Below are positions 9,215-32,257 of a stretch of DNA of 32,257 nt, one piece after another; positions within the stretch are counted from its first letter, which is position 1, and each line of letters starts with the position of its first letter. Source of the DNA: Sphaerodactylus townsendi (Eukaryota); NCBI RefSeq assembly GCF_021028975.2, contig NC_059439.1:34255744-34288000 (forward strand). The letters run 5' to 3'. A program made the translations under genes and the position numbers. The notes beneath the pieces are model-generated. The model saw only the letters and a list, made by a program, of their open reading frames with translations. It had not been told where the DNA came from and made no database searches.

Positions 9215-9300
9215 CTTGAAGAAGAAAACAAAGGAAGTTAGTGTTTTAGTGAATAATGGGAATCAGACCTTCCAAAAGCTTGTGTAAGGATTAGAAAAAC

Positions 9301-9851
9301 AGCTAGATTTGAGTCTAGTAGCACCTTAGATGCCAACTTAGAAATGTTGGGTTATAAACTACAACATTGAATGGAGGTACAAGATAGAATGGAGATCTCA
9401 GTTTCTTTGTATCCCGGTTAGAAGGTGGGAGGTGTGTTATAATGAAAGAAGCTAAGCTGCAAAGATACAATGCAAGGATCAAGGGGAATTTCTCCATTAC
9501 ACCCGTCCAGAAATCTTACCTGTGGAATCTTGTAAAGCTTCAAGATGTCCTCCATGCAGGAGGAGATTTGAAAATCAGCTAGATTTGAGTCTAGTAGCAC
9601 CTTAGACACCAACTAGAAATGTTGGGTTATAAACTACAACATTGAATGGAGGTACAAGATCGAATGGAGATCTCAGTTTCTTTGTATCCCAGTTAGAAGG
9701 TGGGAGGTGTGTTATAATGAAAGAAGCTAAGCTGCAAAGATACAATGCAAGGATCAAGGGGAATTTCTCCATTACACCCGTCCAGAAATCTTACCTGTGG
9801 AATCTTGTAACGCTTCAAGATGTCCTCCATGCAGGAGGAGATGTGAAAATC
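9301..9851. repeat. Tandem duplication (276 + 275 bp) of the 3' end of gene A exon 2 plus adjacent intron
   Basis: 9301-9576 is near-identical to 9577-9851, with a second CAG|GTAAGA donor at 9520/9519. Confidence 0.95.
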
Positions 9852-11809: not shown

Positions 11810-12024
11810 AGGGGAACTGAAGTCTGCTCCTGAGACGGATGTTTCTCGAAGGAAATGTTGGGGAAAATGTAAGAGACGTGAGTTGCAATCTCGCCAATGA
11901 GGATGTCACCTGGTTGGTACCACTCGTGTGGAACCCAAAGCATACGGTCCCCCCTACACTTCATAGCATGTTCTTTGCTCATAATTTGGGGAATCATCAT
12001 CATCATCAACATCAGAGGTGCCAT
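11810..12024 (-). CDS. V2R gene A exon 1 (signal peptide and start of Venus flytrap domain); vomeronasal type-2 receptor, Vmn2r26-like family
   Basis: MAPLMLMMMMIPQ...KC...HEWYQPGDILIG matches a V2R exon-1 motif. Donor CT|GTAAAG at 11810/11809; 215 bp, phase 2. The six exons (215+292+888+228+127+902=2652 nt) join into an open 883-aa CDS. Confidence 0.88.
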
Positions 12025-12820: not shown

Positions 12821-12869
12821 ATGGAAAGTTAAAATATAAAGTAAAGCTTATTTTAACATTCCTCTATAG

Positions 12870-13004
12870 CACAGGTGTCAAACTCATGGCCCTCCAGATG
12901 TTATGGACTACAGTTCCCACCATCCCCTGCCAGCATGATGCTGGCAGGAGATGATGGGAACTGTAGTCCATAACACCTGGAGGGCTGCGAGTTTGACACC
13001 TGTG
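12870..13004. mobile_element. Palindromic hAT MITE
   Basis: TIR CACAGGTGTCAAACTC; perfect 8-bp TSD CTCTATAG. Confidence 0.9.
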
Positions 13005-13050
13005 CTCTATAGGAATTAAGGGTCTCCTGTCCACCTGCTCTTCTGTATTA

Positions 13051-13967: not shown

Positions 13968-14107
13968 GGCTGATTCTGCATGGGCCAAAAACAGCAGTGT
14001 GAAAACGGTGTGAAAACAGTGTAAAAGGGTTTACAACCGTGTAAAAGGGTTTATTCTGTTTTCACACCATTTTCACACCACTGTTTTTGGCCCATGCGGA
14101 ATCAGCC
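13968..14107. mobile_element. Palindromic Harbinger-type MITE (second family)
   Basis: TIR GGCTGATTC(T/C)GCATGGGCCAAAAACAG; 3-bp TSD AGA. Confidence 0.85.
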
Positions 14108-14294: not shown

Positions 14295-15233
14295 TAAGTG
14301 TAGTGCTATAGTAAGGTGTTCTTATGTTCTCCCATGTAACTCTCCCTTAATAGAAAAATTCGTTTGCATAAAACCAGCAACTGTGTCTCTCTCTTTTATG
14401 CTACTCTGCAAATTATATTAAGTTTACAAGTCAACATTAGCTTTTCCTGGTGACTTTTCCTGGTATACTTTTCCTCAGTTTTAGTATTTGCATTCTGTTT
14501 TGCTGGCTTTTGAATGACTCAAAAGCTTATAATGTTAATTGTCTTTTACTCTCATTCATCCTTCCATCACTATTTCTTAGAACAGGATGTGTTTCAACAT
14601 GCGTGTGATTCTCTCTGGGCTTCTGGGTGTATTTTTTTTTAGTTAAAGATTTATGTGATGCTCAAAATCATGATAATGAAAAGTTTCTGGTTTTCTGCAT
14701 TATCTTCTGTAAGCAGAAGTGTCTTCGATGTCATGATAGCCAAACATAAAAATAACCAGAAACTGTAACATGCAAAGATGAGTGTAATCTTATCTCATGT
14801 TGCCATCCCCGAAAGACTGCAAACTTGTCAGTGGGGACTGGCCGTGAATTCCACGGGCATATTTTAGTGTTGGGCGTAATTCTTTTAATGATGTGTGTTG
14901 GTTTCTAACATCCATCCACTTCTTCAGATTTCAGTGGATCTTTTAAAGGGCTCCTTTTCATGCCTTTCCATTGGTTCTGCTTAGTGGGAGACTTTATATT
15001 AAGGTGACCAAATTTTTACTCCTGTAACGCAGGGTGCGCGTGCGCGTGCGCGCCCGCGCGGCTGCAGGAGCACACTGCCTTTTGCGACGCTCCCCAGTCA
15101 GGAAACAGAGAAGCACCCCAGAAGGCAGTGCAGCAGCGCAGGAGGCGCACACGGCCGCAGAAACGCACTGCCTTTTGCGGCGGTCCCCGGTTGAAACTCC
15201 CCACGTTACAGGAGTAAAAATCTGGTCACCTTA

Positions 15234-15679
15234 CTTTAAATGCGCTTACAGACACCCGCCCGTGGCATAGTTGACGTCGATTCTGCCTGCCTCTAGGCCT
15301 AAACTTCACTAGAATAATTACTTTCCTCGCCCTTTCCCGAACAGCGGGAGCACTGGGTCTGTTAAGCCACCATTATCCCCACCCCCCAGTTTCCTGAAGC
15401 AGCCACCCTTGGGTCCATTGCCAGGCAGCGGGGGACTACAGCTCCCATCACGCCCCTTGTTGTGATGTTCGCTCCCCCTGTCTCTCTTGGAGGAAGGGAA
15501 GGGGGAGATATCGCAAGAGTTTGTGCAAAGCAAAGGGGAAAGGGTGTTGTGCGCGTACAAGTTTAGGGACGGCCCGGCCAGCCGCAGCGTTCTCGGAGAG
15601 GAATCGAAACTGTGCGAGGATCCCGTGGGCAGATCGACCTGACCGGCTTCCTCTCTCCTGCTGGCGCCGAGTCACCCCG
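15234..15679 (+). promoter_or_regulatory. Captured CpG-rich promoter/5'UTR with ZNF143/THAP11-type motif and CRE-like site
   Basis: ACTACAGCTCCCA at 15435-15447 and TGACGTC at 15272-15278; CpG-rich; directly upstream of the ZFC3H1-like ATG. Confidence 0.6.
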
Positions 15680-15863
15680 ATGGCAACTCCTGAGGCTGAA
15701 GAGAAGGCGGAGGCGCGCCCCTCGAGCAGCCTCTCACCGAAAGAGGAGGGCGAGCTGGAGGACGGCGAAATCAGTGGCGATGACAATCCCGAAGGCCCTC
15801 CCAAGCCGACCAGCCGAGGTGGTGGCCCAAGGGGCCCTTACGCCAGGTGCAGGCCTCATCCCG
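15680..15863 (+). pseudogene. ZFC3H1: Captured 5' fragment of ZFC3H1 coding exon 1; the ORF reads on into transposon sequence to a stop at 15967 (95 aa)
   Basis: MATPEAEEKAEARPSSSLSPKEEGELEDGEISGDDN...PYARCRPH matches my recollection of the vertebrate ZFC3H1 N-terminus (MAT...SSGLSPKEEGELEDGEISDDDN...PYPRRRPPH). Confidence 0.85.
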
Positions 15864-17100
15864 ACGTTGAAACTGGGGAGCGCCGCAAGGGTAGTGGCTT
15901 TGCAGCCGGCAGAAAGCCCTGCGCTAGCCACTGCCTTTGCATGCCTCTCGTTTCCCCGCCTCTGTGACACGGCAAGAAACAGGGAAGTGCCCCAGAAGGC
16001 AGTGCGGCAGCGCAGGAGGAGCACGCGGCTGCAGGAGCGCATTGCCTAATCGGGACAATTTAAAAACCCCGCGGGACGCAGGACACATTGCGGAAAAGTG
16101 TGAGTGTCCCGCCAAAAGTGGGACGGCTGGTCACCTTACTTTATATGTATATATGAAGGCCCAACTGTGCCCTTGCAACTCTGGTGAAACAACTACTTAC
16201 AGTTTGTTGTATCGAAAATTTTATCAGGATGTTAGAAATTTATTGATTTCACCCGGACACCTCCAAATGGAATGATAACCATTGGTGTAAAAGCAGCTAG
16301 AGGGGACTAGAAATCCCATGCTCCTTTGCAAACCCATGACACAATGCCCAGCACAAAGGACTAATTTGATGTGCAGCTGCTCAGAGAGCTTGAAATAACA
16401 GTTTGACTATTCTACTATGTGTAATGTGACCTTGGTTATAAATCAGGAGATAAGAAGTCAGGGCTTCAGAAAAGGGATGTGTTCCCCAGTTTGGAAATAC
16501 TGAGTTTAAAGGAAAGAACTTTGCAATCAGCTTGGGATTTGACAAATGCACTTTTTTTGAAAGGAAAGGTTGCAATCAATAATTATACAACTGATACACC
16601 CTTATCTACAGACAATCAACTTGGGAAGTGGAAAATATTATACACAAAACTCATAAAATGGGAGAAAAATCTGCAAAAACAATTGAACAACATTTGATGA
16701 AACAGCCAGATAGAGACTTGGGGAAAAGAACTTCAGAGGGAAGAATACAGACGCTTCAGCCTGCACAAATCATAAGTCCATTACTGGTGTATTGCAATGA
16801 ATTAGCAGAGTAAATACTAGGGCAGAAATGCAAGTAAGTTGTTTTGTAGAACTTTATTAGATGACAAATTAATTTACACTAAATATAGGAAGAGCAAACA
16901 CTGTCTATGCAAGTTCTTAATCTGGACCTTTGTGCAGTCTATCTCTCAAGTTTTGCTGGAAGAAGAAAGGAGAGATCTTTCCAGAAGCTCATGTGATTCT
17001 AGGCATATGACTTGAGCAGTAAACTCCTGCTTGATTGAATGAAACAGGCACTTATACCAGCCTAACAGCTACCCCAAGTACTCTTCTGAATGTGAGTAAT

Positions 17101-18008
17101 TCATTCAACTTCATGCTTTCTCATTAGATGTCCTTTTTTATTCTGCTCAGGTCTTACTATAATGACGTAGCATTTTGGGAAGAAGATGCAGGCCAGTAAT
17201 CCAGCACTGGAGGTTAAGATGGAGAAGATCTCCACAGCCACCATGGATTTGCCCTTGGTGCTCAAGTAGGTTGGAACGAAGGAGACCCACACACTGCAAA
17301 AGACCAACATGCTGAAGGTGATGAACTTGGCTTCATTGAAACTGTCCGGTAACTTCCTGGCTAAGAAAGCCACAGTGAAGCTGATGAGGGCCAGGAAGCC
17401 AAGAAAGCTCAGGACACCGTAAAACATGGTGACAGACCCCTCGTTACATTCCAGCACAATTGTCTCTGTCATTGAGTGCCTGTCAAAACCTGGGAAGGGG
17501 GGAGATGTTGCCAACCACACGGTACATATAGTAGTTTGGAAAAGGGAACATGCAAGGACAATGGAACTGGCCAACTTTTTCCCCAGCCATCTCCTCATTC
17601 TGGATCCTGGTTTTGTGGCCAGAAAAGCCAGAACTACAATGACAGTTTTGGCTAAAACACAAGAAACAGCCACTGAGAAGATAATGCCGAAAGCCGTTTG
17701 TCGAAGGAGACAGGTCCACTTCTGAGGTTGGCCAATGAACAGCAAACCACAAAGGAAAGACAAGAGGAGAGAGATGAGGAGAGTGTAGGTGAGATCCCGG
17801 TTGTTGGCTTTGACTATGGGAGTCTCCCGGTGCTTAACAAAGATCCCAAGCACCACAGCCGTGATGACAAAGAAGGAAAGAGCAACAGCGGCCAGGCTGA
17901 TCCCCAAAGGTTCTCCGTAAGTTAAAAAGCTGATCTCTTTCGGTATGCATGAATTCTGGCATTTGTTTGGATACTGACCTTCAGGACACTCAAAACATTC
18001 ATTCATGT
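17101..18008 (-). CDS. V2R gene B exon 6 (7TM)
   Basis: tttgcag|AC acceptor; 908 bp to TGA; full set of class C 7TM motifs. Confidence 0.96.
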
Positions 18009-18328
18009 CTGCAAACATAAAACATTTTTCCTGACTTTACCTTTGATAAAGCAAAGAATAAACAAAGACTCGGAAGGTTCTATAGGGTCCTGTATACTTG
18101 GTCAGTTGAACTTAAGCTGCTGAAGAGACCTTCTGTGGCCCACTTAGGTCTAACTAATTTTACATAGTTTAGCTATAGCAAGTATATCACTAACTATGGG
18201 CTTCTTCTGGAAGATTAACTCCTGGGTTGAGCAAAACATGAAATTCAGGAGATGTCTACAGGGCCATTCTCACCATTCTATGTACATATCGAAATACAAT
18301 GAACATATCTGATAGTCGAATCTCTTAC

Positions 18329-21019: not shown

Positions 21020-21172
21020 TGTAGCTGTGGACAGTTGGGATTGTTTCAAAAACAGATCCCGGAAGAGCCTTTGACTTCTCTCCCATGTCCATTTTCCATT
21101 CATGTCAACTGTGGAGAAGGAACACCAAAACACCTGTTTCCAGAAGTCCCTGATGGAGCTGTCTTCTTTTTC
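21020..21172 (-). pseudogene. Degenerate V2R exon-3 fragment inside gene B intron 3
   Basis: gtagctgtggacagttgggattgtttcaaaaacagatcccggaagagcc matches 21891-21939. Translates ...IRDFWKQVFWCSF... with a frameshift. Confidence 0.8.
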
Positions 21173-21767
21173 ATATACATCATATTTTCTCCACTATTAG
21201 TCTATTGAATTAGATGCACCACTCCCAGCTGCTGTAACTTCTGATATGGTTTACTGAAATGGGATTTTAATTGGGATTGCCATTAAAATGACTAGGAAGC
21301 TTTAACTACTGCTAAACATAGAAGCCCACTGCTCCAATCACCTGTTTAAGGTACCCTCCTCAGAGAGGTTTGTTACTCTTCCTCCTGTTCTGGGGAAATT
21401 ACCGGTAGTTCATGGTACGAATACCATGGTAACACATTCGCTTCATCACTTTAGGACAGCTATTAAGAATGTTTCCAACAGCTCTTCTTGGAGGTTAATG
21501 GAAATATGAAGCCAGAAATTTGGTTTAGAGAGATGGTAAGAAATGTATTCAGGGTGTTTTACAGTGATTGAAAAGGCCAGAATTCAATTTGTGGTAAGTT
21601 AACTTGTGCCTGTAGGGGTTTGTTTGTTCCCTATCATACGTTCTCAGAGAAAAGAGGGTGCACATGTTTTGGCCAACAAATCCATTCAACAAATAAGTGA
21701 GTATGATTAGAATGTGGGGATAGGGAGGGATATAAACAAAAATAAATTAATAAAAAATAAATGTCAC

Positions 21768-31160: not shown

Positions 31161-31297
31161 TTATATTTGAGCACCATTTAGTGATGAAAAATTATAGCCC
31201 ACTGATGGCGACACGCTAGGATTTTGAAGAGAAGAGAAGAGAAGAGCTAGTTTACCATTTCCTGTCCCTGAGTAGGATCACTTAACTTCCTCTATTG

Positions 31298-31443
31298 CAG
31301 TGGTGGCGAACCTTTGGCACTCCAGATGTTATGGACTACAATTCCCAGCAGCCCCTGCCAGCATAGCCAATTGACCATGCTGGCAGGGGCTGATGGGAAT
31401 TGTAGTCCATAACATCTGGAGTGTCAAAGGTTCACCACCACGG
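31298..31443. mobile_element. Palindromic hAT MITE
   Basis: TIR CAGTGGTGGCGAACCTTTG; perfect 8-bp TSD CTCTATTG. Confidence 0.9.
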
Positions 31444-31771
31444 CTCTATTGTCTCCCATCCAAGTACTTTGAAAAAGCCCAATCAACTAAGCTCCCAAGG
31501 GTTGATGAGGTCTGGTAGCTTCAGCCAATCAGGTTAGAGCAAGCTCTGATCAGTTGCCCACTCCAAAATGCAGTGATAAAGCCAAATTACTCTTTTAGGC
31601 TCATTCACGCACAAGCAGAATAATGCACTTTCAAACTGCTTTCAGTGCTCTTTGAAGCTGTGCGGAATGGCAAACAGTTGTGAAAGTGTATTGTCGAAGG
31701 CTTTCACGGCCGGAATCACTTGGGTGCTGTGTGGTTTCTGGGCTGTATGGCCGTGTTCTAGCAGCATTCTC

Positions 31772-31814
31772 TCCTGACGTTTCGCCTGCATCTGTGGCTG
31801 GCATCTTCAGAGGA
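31772..31814 (-). ncRNA. Minimal type I hammerhead ribozyme, opposite-strand copy
   Basis: Exact reverse complement of 31842-31884. Confidence 0.75.
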
Positions 31815-31841
31815 TCTCTGATCTCTTCAGAGGATATCAGA

Positions 31842-31884
31842 TCCTCTGAAGATGCCAGCCACAGATGCAGGCGAAACGTCAGGA
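31842..31884 (+). ncRNA. Minimal type I hammerhead ribozyme (Penelope-associated)
   Basis: TCCT-CTGAAGA-T-GCCAGC[loop]GCAGGC-GAAAC-GTC-AGGA: conserved CUGANGA/GAAA/GUC core, 4-bp stem I, palindromic ACGT stem III. Confidence 0.75.
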
Positions 31885-32257
31885 GAGAATGCTGCTAGAA
31901 CACGGCCATACAGCCCGGAAACCACACAGCACCCAAGTTGTGAAAGTGGTTTGAAAATGCATTATTTTGCGTGTGCAGAAGGGGCCTAAGTTGCTTTGAG
32001 GAATCACAGTTAGCAAGACAAGAGTTACAACTATTTTAATGAATACAATAGTTAGAAAATAAAATCTGGCATAACACCATAAAGATTTCAAATAATGTAA
32101 CCAGTCAGTCTGTATAAGATAGCAAATATAAAACAGCTCCGTTACAGAAACAATTAACAGATACCTTGTGAGGCAGGTTGGGTTAAGAGAGTTAAGAAAG
32201 AACTCTAGCTGGCACAACGACTTTAATATATTTACTCTTTTTACTTTTTTTTCTGCT

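What the first reader, a model, noticed from the sequence alone, without database searches (positions are those of the whole stretch)
15680..15967. Chimeric 95-aa micro-ORF keeps the ARS2-binding EDGEI motif: possible PAXT decoy
Seen: the ZFC3H1-like ATG (G at +4) opens ~61 host-derived codons including SPKEEGELEDGEIS. The frame continues without a stop into TE sequence to TGA at 15965-15967. Known: ZFC3H1 is the scaffold of the PAXT nuclear-exosome adaptor, its N-terminal acidic EDGEI-type motif binds ARS2, and PAXT helps degrade nuclear polyadenylated and TE-derived RNA. Inference (speculative): if expressed from the co-captured promoter, the peptide has the ARS2 motif but none of the rest of the protein, so it could act as a competitor, i.e. 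a transposon-borne anti-surveillance microprotein. Neutral passenger status is at least as likely.
Basis: partly seen in the sequence, partly recalled or inferred. Interest (0 to 1): 0.7.

Follow-up and report, generated by a model that had tools for sequence, protein, structure and literature searches.

The report
Gecko transposon carrying ZFC3H1 gene start
A small DNA transposon in a gecko carries a copy of the upstream region and first 62 codons of the RNA-surveillance gene ZFC3H1 at two genomic sites; one copy's reading frame is dead and the other is likely decaying as a passenger, so the proposed decoy peptide is possible but unsupported.

Summary
The core observation holds. Window 15000-16138 is a 1,139-bp non-autonomous hAT-type element with an 8-bp target duplication. 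It carries 632 bp of the ZFC3H1 locus: 446 bp upstream of the ATG plus 62 codons, including the tandem ARS2-binding motif EEGELEDGEI. The cargo is about 95% identical to the parent on C6 at aligned sites. A sister copy on C4 has its own target duplication, so this is a multicopy Pack-TIR. The 95-aa length is not reliable: contigs of 3 of 3 public runs match up to 15888, then continue with the family sequence, not the assembly's, so residues 71-95 are probably an assembly error in a hairpin arm. Function is unsupported: the sister has a stop at codon 8 and a frameshift; the window copy has 8 amino-acid changes to 6 silent ones, compatible with neutral drift (P 0.2-0.5); both copies lost about 30% of CpGs; only 2 copies carry the cargo against at least 160 family ends. 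The decoy idea is biochemically sound: an overexpressed human ZFC3H1 1-209 fragment blocks ARS2-dependent decay (PMC10720265). Expression was not testable. Verdict: most likely a neutral passenger (0.85); expressed decoy with a selected role about 0.04.

The parts
14992..14999 (.). Left 8-bp target site duplication CTTTATAT
   Evidence: identical to 16139-16146
15000..15118 (+). Left end of a non-autonomous hAT-type element (terminal TAAGGTGACCA) and first internal module
   Evidence: 90-94% like family copies
15119..15233 (-). Inverted second left end of the same family (type seen in L058); its terminus abuts the host DNA exactly
   Evidence: 93% identical over 115 bp to the reverse complement of the L058 left end; this end type found at 3 places only: C17, C4, C15
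15234..15679 (+). Captured ZFC3H1 upstream region and 5' UTR (CpG-rich, likely the promoter), beginning at CTTTAAAT; CpGs decayed, CGCG core of a BANP-like site mutated at 15515
   Evidence: BANP consensus from PMC10206803 passages; promoter role inferred
15680..15865 (+). First 62 codons of ZFC3H1 exon 1 (of 188), with tandem ARS2-recruitment motif EEGEL/EDGEI at residues 22-31; 8 amino-acid and 6 silent changes against the parent
   Evidence: supported by contigs of public runs
15866..15888 (+). Host/TE junction and first TE-derived codons (VETGERRK), supported by contigs of public runs
15889..15975 (+). 5' arm of a long internal hairpin; sequence probably miscalled in the assembly; gives residues 71-95 and the stop of the reported ORF
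   Evidence: loose end AAGGCAGTG after 15888 in 3 of 3 runs; 72% best match to family; sister arm folds as a hairpin, z -16.7
15976..16138 (+). Right end of the hAT-type element (terminal TGGTCACCTTA)
   Evidence: 95-98% like family copies
16139..16146 (.). Right 8-bp target site duplication CTTTATAT

Best explanation
A non-autonomous hAT-type transposon carries 632 bp from the start of ZFC3H1 at two sites (C15 and C4), each with its own 8-bp target duplication, and this cargo is likely a neutral passenger that is decaying, not a working decoy gene. Shown: the anatomy, the parent, the two copies, the dead frame in the sister, CpG loss and amino-acid changes in both. Inferred origin: a family element once inserted at CTTTAAAT, 446 bp upstream of the ZFC3H1 ATG. 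Its hairpin-rich interior stalled replication or repair, and template switching joined left end, an inverted left end, the adjacent host DNA and the right end into one unit. A transposase acting in trans then moved that unit. Inferred fate: the captured CpG island was methylated in the germ line and lost CpGs by deamination. The open frame and the motif in the window copy are leftovers, about 5% diverged from the parent. The 95-aa tail is probably an assembly error.
For: Element ends and TSD. Sister copy of 1,139 bp with TSD GTATATAA; 45 of 47 extracted family elements have an 8-bp TSD. Parent on C6, 92% by the search and 32 substitutions in 630 aligned sites. Sister frame dead: TAG at codon 8, 1-bp deletion, no Met before the motif in the remaining frame, yet KEEGELEDGEIS is intact there, so the motif persists without selection. 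Window copy: 8 amino-acid changes from 14 substitutions; simulations expect 8.4-9.8, P(8 or fewer) 0.20-0.50. None of the 8 new residues occurs in the 4 other gecko orthologs inspected; they include D33G and R57C/P60H in conserved stretches. CpG count 59 in parent, 41 in window, 39 in sister; window-only changes hit 10 of 114 CpG sites against 9 of 514 others, Fisher P 6e-4; sister 15 of 114 against 9 of 514, P 1e-6. The CGCG core of the BANP-like site is broken independently in both copies. Cargo junction found 2 times against 160 exact right ends: no sign that the cargo helped spread. CTTTAAAT is also the TSD of family copy L019.
Against: The raw ratio is below 1: 8 of 140 nonsynonymous against 6 of 46 synonymous sites, about 0.43, and 62 codons give little power. 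The 14-residue acidic block has no amino-acid change in the window copy, which happens in only 9-13% of neutral simulations; open frame plus intact EEGELEDGEI occurs in 12-15%. 41 of 59 CpGs and the CRE-like word remain. Tan et al. report that 30% or more of Pack-TIRs examined are transcribed, and 5 of 8 exonic ones in human (PMC8277862 section 10). No family element or clear excision footprint lies in 20 kb of the parent locus, so the origin step rests on junction anatomy alone. Only 40 candidates were scored per family DNA search, so other cargo-bearing elements were not surveyed.
Confidence: 0.85

Rival explanations
1. Expressed ARS2 decoy: the C15 copy is transcribed from the captured promoter and makes a peptide of roughly 100-125 aa that occupies the ARS2 zinc-finger surface, weakening ARS2-dependent NEXT and PAXT decay, and it is kept by selection on host or element.
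For: Tandem motif intact, and EEGELEDGEI is present in the first 120 aa of 79 of 85 homologs. Short peptides suffice for ARS2 binding (PMC9402713). Overexpressed ZFC3H1 1-209 acts as exactly such a competitor (PMC10720265). ATG and 446 bp upstream are co-captured; raw dN/dS about 0.43.
Against: Sister frame dead. Substitutions compatible with neutrality. CpG decay and broken CGCG site. The published effect needed overexpression, and the related yeast peptide binds with a Kd of about 5 uM. No host splice donor is captured and the first + strand AATAAA is at 18057; short unspliced RNAs are themselves ARS2-dependent PAXT substrates (PMC10720265 section 10). A non-autonomous DNA element needs no RNA of its own to move (own knowledge), and the cargo did not amplify.
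Confidence: 0.04
2. The captured CpG-island promoter still drives some transcription, coding or not, without a selected protein: for example antisense RNA into the last exon of the neighbouring receptor gene (17101-18036), or leftward transcription towards the receptor gene whose first-exon-like stretch lies at 11827-11961.
For: 446 bp of upstream DNA retained with CpG o/e 0.71 against 0.36 for the whole window. Position between two receptor genes on the minus strand. Pack-TIRs are often cotranscribed with neighbours (PMC8277862 section 10).
Against: CpG deamination in both copies and loss of the CGCG core. No THAP-family match near the parent among 10 matches, so a bidirectional partner gene is not shown.
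Confidence: 0.09
3. The whole chimera is a misassembly, or a plain segmental duplication of ZFC3H1 with unrelated TE insertions.
For: Part of the element (15889-15975) does look miscalled.
Against: Contigs of 3 runs bridge the right host/TE junction. Two loci on different contigs share both junctions, differ at 44 of 630 sites and have different perfect TSDs.
Confidence: 0.02

Closest known systems
Animal Pack-TIRs, multicopy class (Tan et al. 2021, PMC8277862), e.g. Pack-hAT-N8_XT carrying 291 bp of the CAPSL 5' UTR in Xenopus tropicalis
   Same: Short non-autonomous hAT with a captured 5' gene fragment, copies on other chromosomes than the parent, distinct TSDs, rearrangement-prone repeats (sections read).
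   Different: Cargo here includes upstream DNA, the ATG and a functional short linear motif; it has an extra inverted element end abutting the cargo; two copies; gecko. Multicopy cases were only 4 (1.4%) in their reference genomes.
Ssk-FB4 of Drosophila melanogaster (same paper)
   Same: [quoted passage not shown]
   Different: Ssk-FB4 holds almost the whole gene, is strongly transcribed and has proteomic and selection support; here 62 of 1,976 codons are held and one of two copies is dead.
Engineered ZFC3H1 1-209 fragment (Polak et al. 2023, PMC10720265)
   Same: ARS2-recruitment motif without the rest of the scaffold; defines what the peptide would do if abundant.
   Different: Overexpressed construct in HeLa cells; no natural or transposon-borne case turned up in my searches.
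Xenopus dm-W (PMC9250109, abstract only)
   Same: Host-gene N-terminus joined to coding sequence recruited from a non-coding part of a hAT element.
   Different: dm-W is a shown, conserved functional gene with a spliced hAT-derived exon; no function or conservation is shown here.

Membership tests
Pack-TIR (Tan et al. 2021) | Internal non-TE sequence of 100-5,000 bp flanked by the two ends of one TIR element | tested here: met
   632-bp cargo inside 15000-16138 with both family termini; criterion from section 14
Pack-TIR (Tan et al. 2021) | Unique parental copy, at least 90% identity, length ratio 80-120% | tested here: met
   C6 parent, 92%, 632 against 648 bp
Pack-TIR (Tan et al. 2021) | Parent not flanked by TEs (not a segmental duplication) | tested here: inconclusive
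   No hit of the 47 family elements in 20 kb of the parent locus apart from the cargo; other TE families next to the parent were not screened, no repeat library on hand
Pack-TIR (Tan et al. 2021) | Not a retrocopy | tested here: met
   Cargo starts 446 bp upstream of the ATG, ends inside exon 1, no spliced junction or poly(A)
Multicopy Pack-TIR | Same chimeric structure at several loci with distinct TSDs | tested here: met
   C15 CTTTATAT, C4 GTATATAA
hAT superfamily, non-autonomous | 8-bp target site duplication and short terminal inverted repeats | tested here: met
   45 of 47 extracted elements with 8-bp TSD; 11-bp terminal repeat TAAGGTGACCA; that these define hAT is own knowledge
hAT superfamily, non-autonomous | An autonomous partner with a hAT transposase and the same ends | not tested
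   No transposase-bearing copy among the 47 extracted elements (235-1,139 bp; extraction limited to 2.5 kb); no dedicated search made
hAT-Blackjack subgroup | Terminal sequence and transposase clade | not testable with these tools
   Resemblance of the terminus is recalled only; paper search gave nothing usable
ARS2 recruitment motif (ARM) | [DE][DE]G[DE][ILV], often tandem | tested here: met
   EEGEL and EDGEI at residues 22-31; consensus from PMC10720265
ARS2 recruitment motif (ARM) | Direct binding to the ARS2 zinc-finger surface | not testable with these tools
   Shown for human ZFC3H1 peptides in the papers, not for this peptide
Functional TE-borne microprotein | Frame kept across copies | tested here: not met
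   1 of 2 copies has a stop at codon 8 and a frameshift
Functional TE-borne microprotein | Purifying selection | tested here: inconclusive
   8 nonsynonymous, 6 silent; P 0.20-0.50 against neutral models; low power
Functional TE-borne microprotein | Transcription and translation | not testable with these tools

The most novel reading that the evidence does not exclude
The C15 copy is a natural, transposon-built gene for an ARS2-blocking micropeptide: a captured housekeeping promoter drives the tandem ZFC3H1 motif without its scaffold, damping both ARS2-dependent NEXT and PAXT decay in gecko cells, a natural counterpart of the engineered ZFC3H1 1-209 competitor and a transposon-borne antagonist of nuclear RNA surveillance.
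Probability: 0.04. Interest if true: 0.8.

Novelty: new member of a known kind. Interest (0 to 1): 0.3.

Why it matters
As it stands it is a clean example of a multicopy Pack-hAT in a lizard, a rare class in animals (4 cases, 1.4%, in Tan et al.), with a junction that records how the capture probably happened and a CpG island caught in decay. It also shows that hairpin arms in this family can be miscalled in the assembly and can invent ORF tails. If the C15 copy proved to be expressed and selected, it would be a transposon-derived inhibitor of ARS2-dependent nuclear RNA decay, for which my paper searches found no natural example.

Tried and rejected
Expression: the look-up of sequencing runs for RNA gave 'no RNA holder listed'; this is no evidence either way. 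The 3 runs listed are of unrecorded kind, one study, at most 2 samples, and may be the data behind the assembly. Cover: no contig of the 3 runs lay on 15897-15950 at 95% likeness; a hole alone proves nothing, and the argument for miscalling rests on the loose end and the family comparison. PDB sequence search with the 95-aa ORF: 1 chance hit at E 1.3. Pfam: no family for the ORF. Homolog search at 52-167 aa: none of 4 candidates scored; exact sequence not in the protein collection; neither shows absence. A head-to-head THAP gene next to the parent (recalled from human): none of 10 THAP matches lies near C6:58.4 Mb. Pattern search was badly aimed and found nothing. I considered GTTGAAAC on both sides of the insert as a target duplication and rejected it as unproven, since the word is native to family copy L058. 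Empty site: no relative genome is held, and no paralogous flank was found in the window. A fourth weak protein match (C852, E 0.23) was not examined. Earlier-findings look-ups returned nothing. One search failed on a script error and was rerun. The supplements of Tan et al. were not read; they list the Pack-TIRs per species.

Full report
Observation. Window 15680-15967 (+) translates to 95 aa containing SPKEEGELEDGEIS and ends in TGA. It lies in a GC-rich island of about 1.1 kb between class C GPCR genes on the minus strand (7tm_3 and ANF_receptor matches; exon layout). I call these vomeronasal type 2 receptor genes from my own knowledge of squamate clusters. The island is 963 bp beyond the last exon of one gene (17101-18036) and about 3 kb upstream of a first-exon-like stretch of the next (11827-11961).

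The element. The island is one element, 15000-16138, with terminal TAAGGTGACCA inverted repeats and a perfect 8-bp duplication CTTTATAT. Genome searches with its two TE parts returned many copies (40 candidates scored in each). From the fetched loci I extracted 47 distinct complete elements of 235-1,139 bp; 7 loci gave no complete element. 45 of 47 have an 8-bp duplication with a TA-centred preference. An exact 25-base right-end pattern occurs 160 times, a lower bound. The median pairwise difference of 40 right ends is 5.3%. Eight-base duplications and short repeats mark hAT elements (own knowledge); no transposase is carried. The interior is built from direct and inverted copies of one module and varies widely.

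The cargo. 15234-15865 matches two other places only: G000:C6:58445607-58446252 and G000:C4:43089462-43090089. The C6 locus continues as exon 1 and further exons of a gene whose exon-1 translation is 100% identical to a 1,976-aa protein named zinc finger C3H1 domain-containing protein of Sphaerodactylus townsendi. This is the parent. The cargo holds 446 bp upstream of the ATG and 62 of 188 exon-1 codons, with no host splice donor. The C4 locus is a sister element of 1,139 bp with the same junctions and its own duplication GTATATAA. A pattern for the left junction finds these 2 places and no other, and a protein search finds 3 strong matches: window, parent, sister.

How it probably arose (inferred). 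Left of the cargo sits an inverted second left end, 93% identical over 115 bp to the end type of family copy L058. Its terminus abuts host DNA at CTTTAAAT, which is also the duplication of copy L019. That is what an insertion just upstream of ZFC3H1 would leave. Template switching in the hairpin-rich interior could then join left end, inverted left end, host DNA and right end, and a transposase in trans could move the unit. [quoted passage not shown] No family element remains in 20 kb of the parent locus, so the donor insertion is inferred, not seen. The two copies share 11 differences from the parent and differ from each other at 44 of 630 sites.

The ORF tail is probably wrong. Contigs of three public runs (kind not on record, one study, at most two samples, possibly the source data) match 15655-15888 and bridge the host/TE junction, with 0 other letters in X1 and X2 and 1 in X3. 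In 3 of 3 runs the bridging contig continues AAGGCAGTG after 15888, as the sister and most family copies do, not GGGTAGTGG as in the assembly. The stretch 15889-15975 is 72% like its best family match, against 90-100% for six other stretches and 91% for the sister's arm. In the sister this arm folds back on the next stretch as a long hairpin, z -16.7. Inverted duplications cause miscalls in nanopore reads (PMC7229812, abstract); whether this assembly used such reads I did not establish. A rare real allele cannot be excluded. Residues 1-70 stand; the true tail begins RQ and the length is about 97 aa if like the sister, or about 124 aa if like a common family arm. Reading on into this GC-rich TE is the default: 7 of 8 natural copies are open for 30 or more codons in this frame.

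Selection. The sister has TAG at codon 8 and a 1-bp deletion near codon 13, with no Met ahead of the motif in the remaining frame, yet it keeps KEEGELEDGEIS. The window copy differs from the parent by 14 bases in 62 codons: 8 amino-acid changes and 6 silent. None of the 8 new residues is found in the 4 other gecko orthologs inspected. Simulations with CpG weights of 1 to 15 expect 8.4-9.8 changes, P(8 or fewer) 0.20-0.50. The frame stays open in 61-64% of runs, open with at least one ARS2 motif in 47-51%, and open with intact EEGELEDGEI in 12-15%. Against my reading: the unweighted ratio is about 0.43 and the 14-residue acidic block is unchanged, which happens in 9-13% of runs. With two copies and 62 codons this is not significant, but the test is weak.

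Promoter state. CpG counts are 59 in the parent, 41 in the window copy and 39 in the sister. Copy-specific changes are enriched at CpG sites: 10 of 114 against 9 of 514 (P 6e-4) and 15 of 114 against 9 of 514 (P 1e-6). One of the window's non-CpG changes (15297) is contradicted by contigs in 2 runs. This pattern points to germ-line methylation (inference). A near match to the BANP site (CGCG within TCTCGCGAGA; PMC10206803, passages) has lost its CGCG core by a different change in each copy; an X-box-like word is changed in both and an ACTACA-type word in the window copy (these two labels are recalled). The first + strand AATAAA lies at 18057, after the antisense of a receptor exon. Short unspliced RNAs are the preferred substrates of ARS2-dependent PAXT decay (PMC10720265, section 10), so a transcript from here would likely be unstable.

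The decoy idea. Its biochemistry is sound. Human ZFC3H1 12-33 and 20-31 bind ARS2 (PMC9402713, passages). Overexpressed ZFC3H1 1-209 lowers ZC3H18 and ZFC3H1 on ARS2 and raises NEXT and ARS2-dependent PAXT substrates (PMC10720265, passages). EEGELEDGEI occurs in the first 120 aa of 79 of 85 homologs. In mouse ES cells NEXT contributes most to TE RNA control and PAXT less (PMC9433625, passages). But nothing here shows use: one of two copies is dead, the other drifts, the island is decaying, and the cargo stayed at 2 copies while another internal variant of the family has 7 near-identical copies.

Comparison and verdict. The element meets the Pack-TIR criteria that I could test (PMC8277862, section 14) and belongs to the rare multicopy class (4 cases, 1.4%; section 5 part 1). 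It is a new member of a known kind. My searches found no report of a transposon-captured ZFC3H1 fragment (listings only); most subscription journals and all supplements were outside what I saw. Best reading: decaying passenger, 0.85. Residual promoter activity without a selected protein, 0.09. Selected decoy, 0.04. Whole-structure artefact, 0.02. Interest 0.3.

Noticed in passing
L002:2525-2532 (parent ZFC3H1, G000:C6): Exon 1 ends at GTATCCTT, which looks like a U12-type (minor spliceosome) 5' splice site (consensus recalled); the annotated protein continues K-S-K across it.
   Followed up: no
L055:1441-1505 and six other places (C10, C5 twice, C3 twice, C12): A 62-bp internal segment not seen in the other extracted elements occurs 7 times at 98-100% identity, three of them 250-360 bp from an exact family right end: a young subfamily, suggesting recent activity; its source is unknown.
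   Followed up: partly
L019 (element positions 168-291), L029 (307-382), L051 (160-220): Other family copies have garbled-looking stretches where a hairpin arm is expected (L051 aligned, the others judged by eye): possibly the same assembly miscalling.
   Followed up: partly
L059 minus-strand element (374 bp): A distinct subfamily with the same terminal repeats but a different interior lies near a standard copy.
   Followed up: no
window 3484-30353, minus strand: Tandem class C GPCR (V2R-like) genes; two last exons are 90% identical as protein; an extra partial exon-3-like piece with a frame change lies at 21021-21265.
   Followed up: no
window 9289-9851: 275-bp tandem duplication (96% matches) at the end of a receptor exon 2 and the following intron.
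   Followed up: no
window 12858-13016, 31297-31444, 13968-14107, 31718-31938: Several short foldback elements with abutting inverted arms, and a 150-bp dispersed repeat with many copies in both orientations.
   Followed up: no
window 15297: Contigs in 2 of 3 runs read A, as in parent and sister, where the assembly has G: an allele or an assembly error.
   Followed up: no
L066:1-1535 (G000:C4, upstream of the sister copy): About 1.5 kb of a perfect G/C-rich simple tandem repeat, possibly an assembly artefact.
   Followed up: no
L071 (G000:C852:177950-178102): Weak protein match (E 0.23, 36% identity, one stop) to the ZFC3H1 N-terminus.
   Followed up: no
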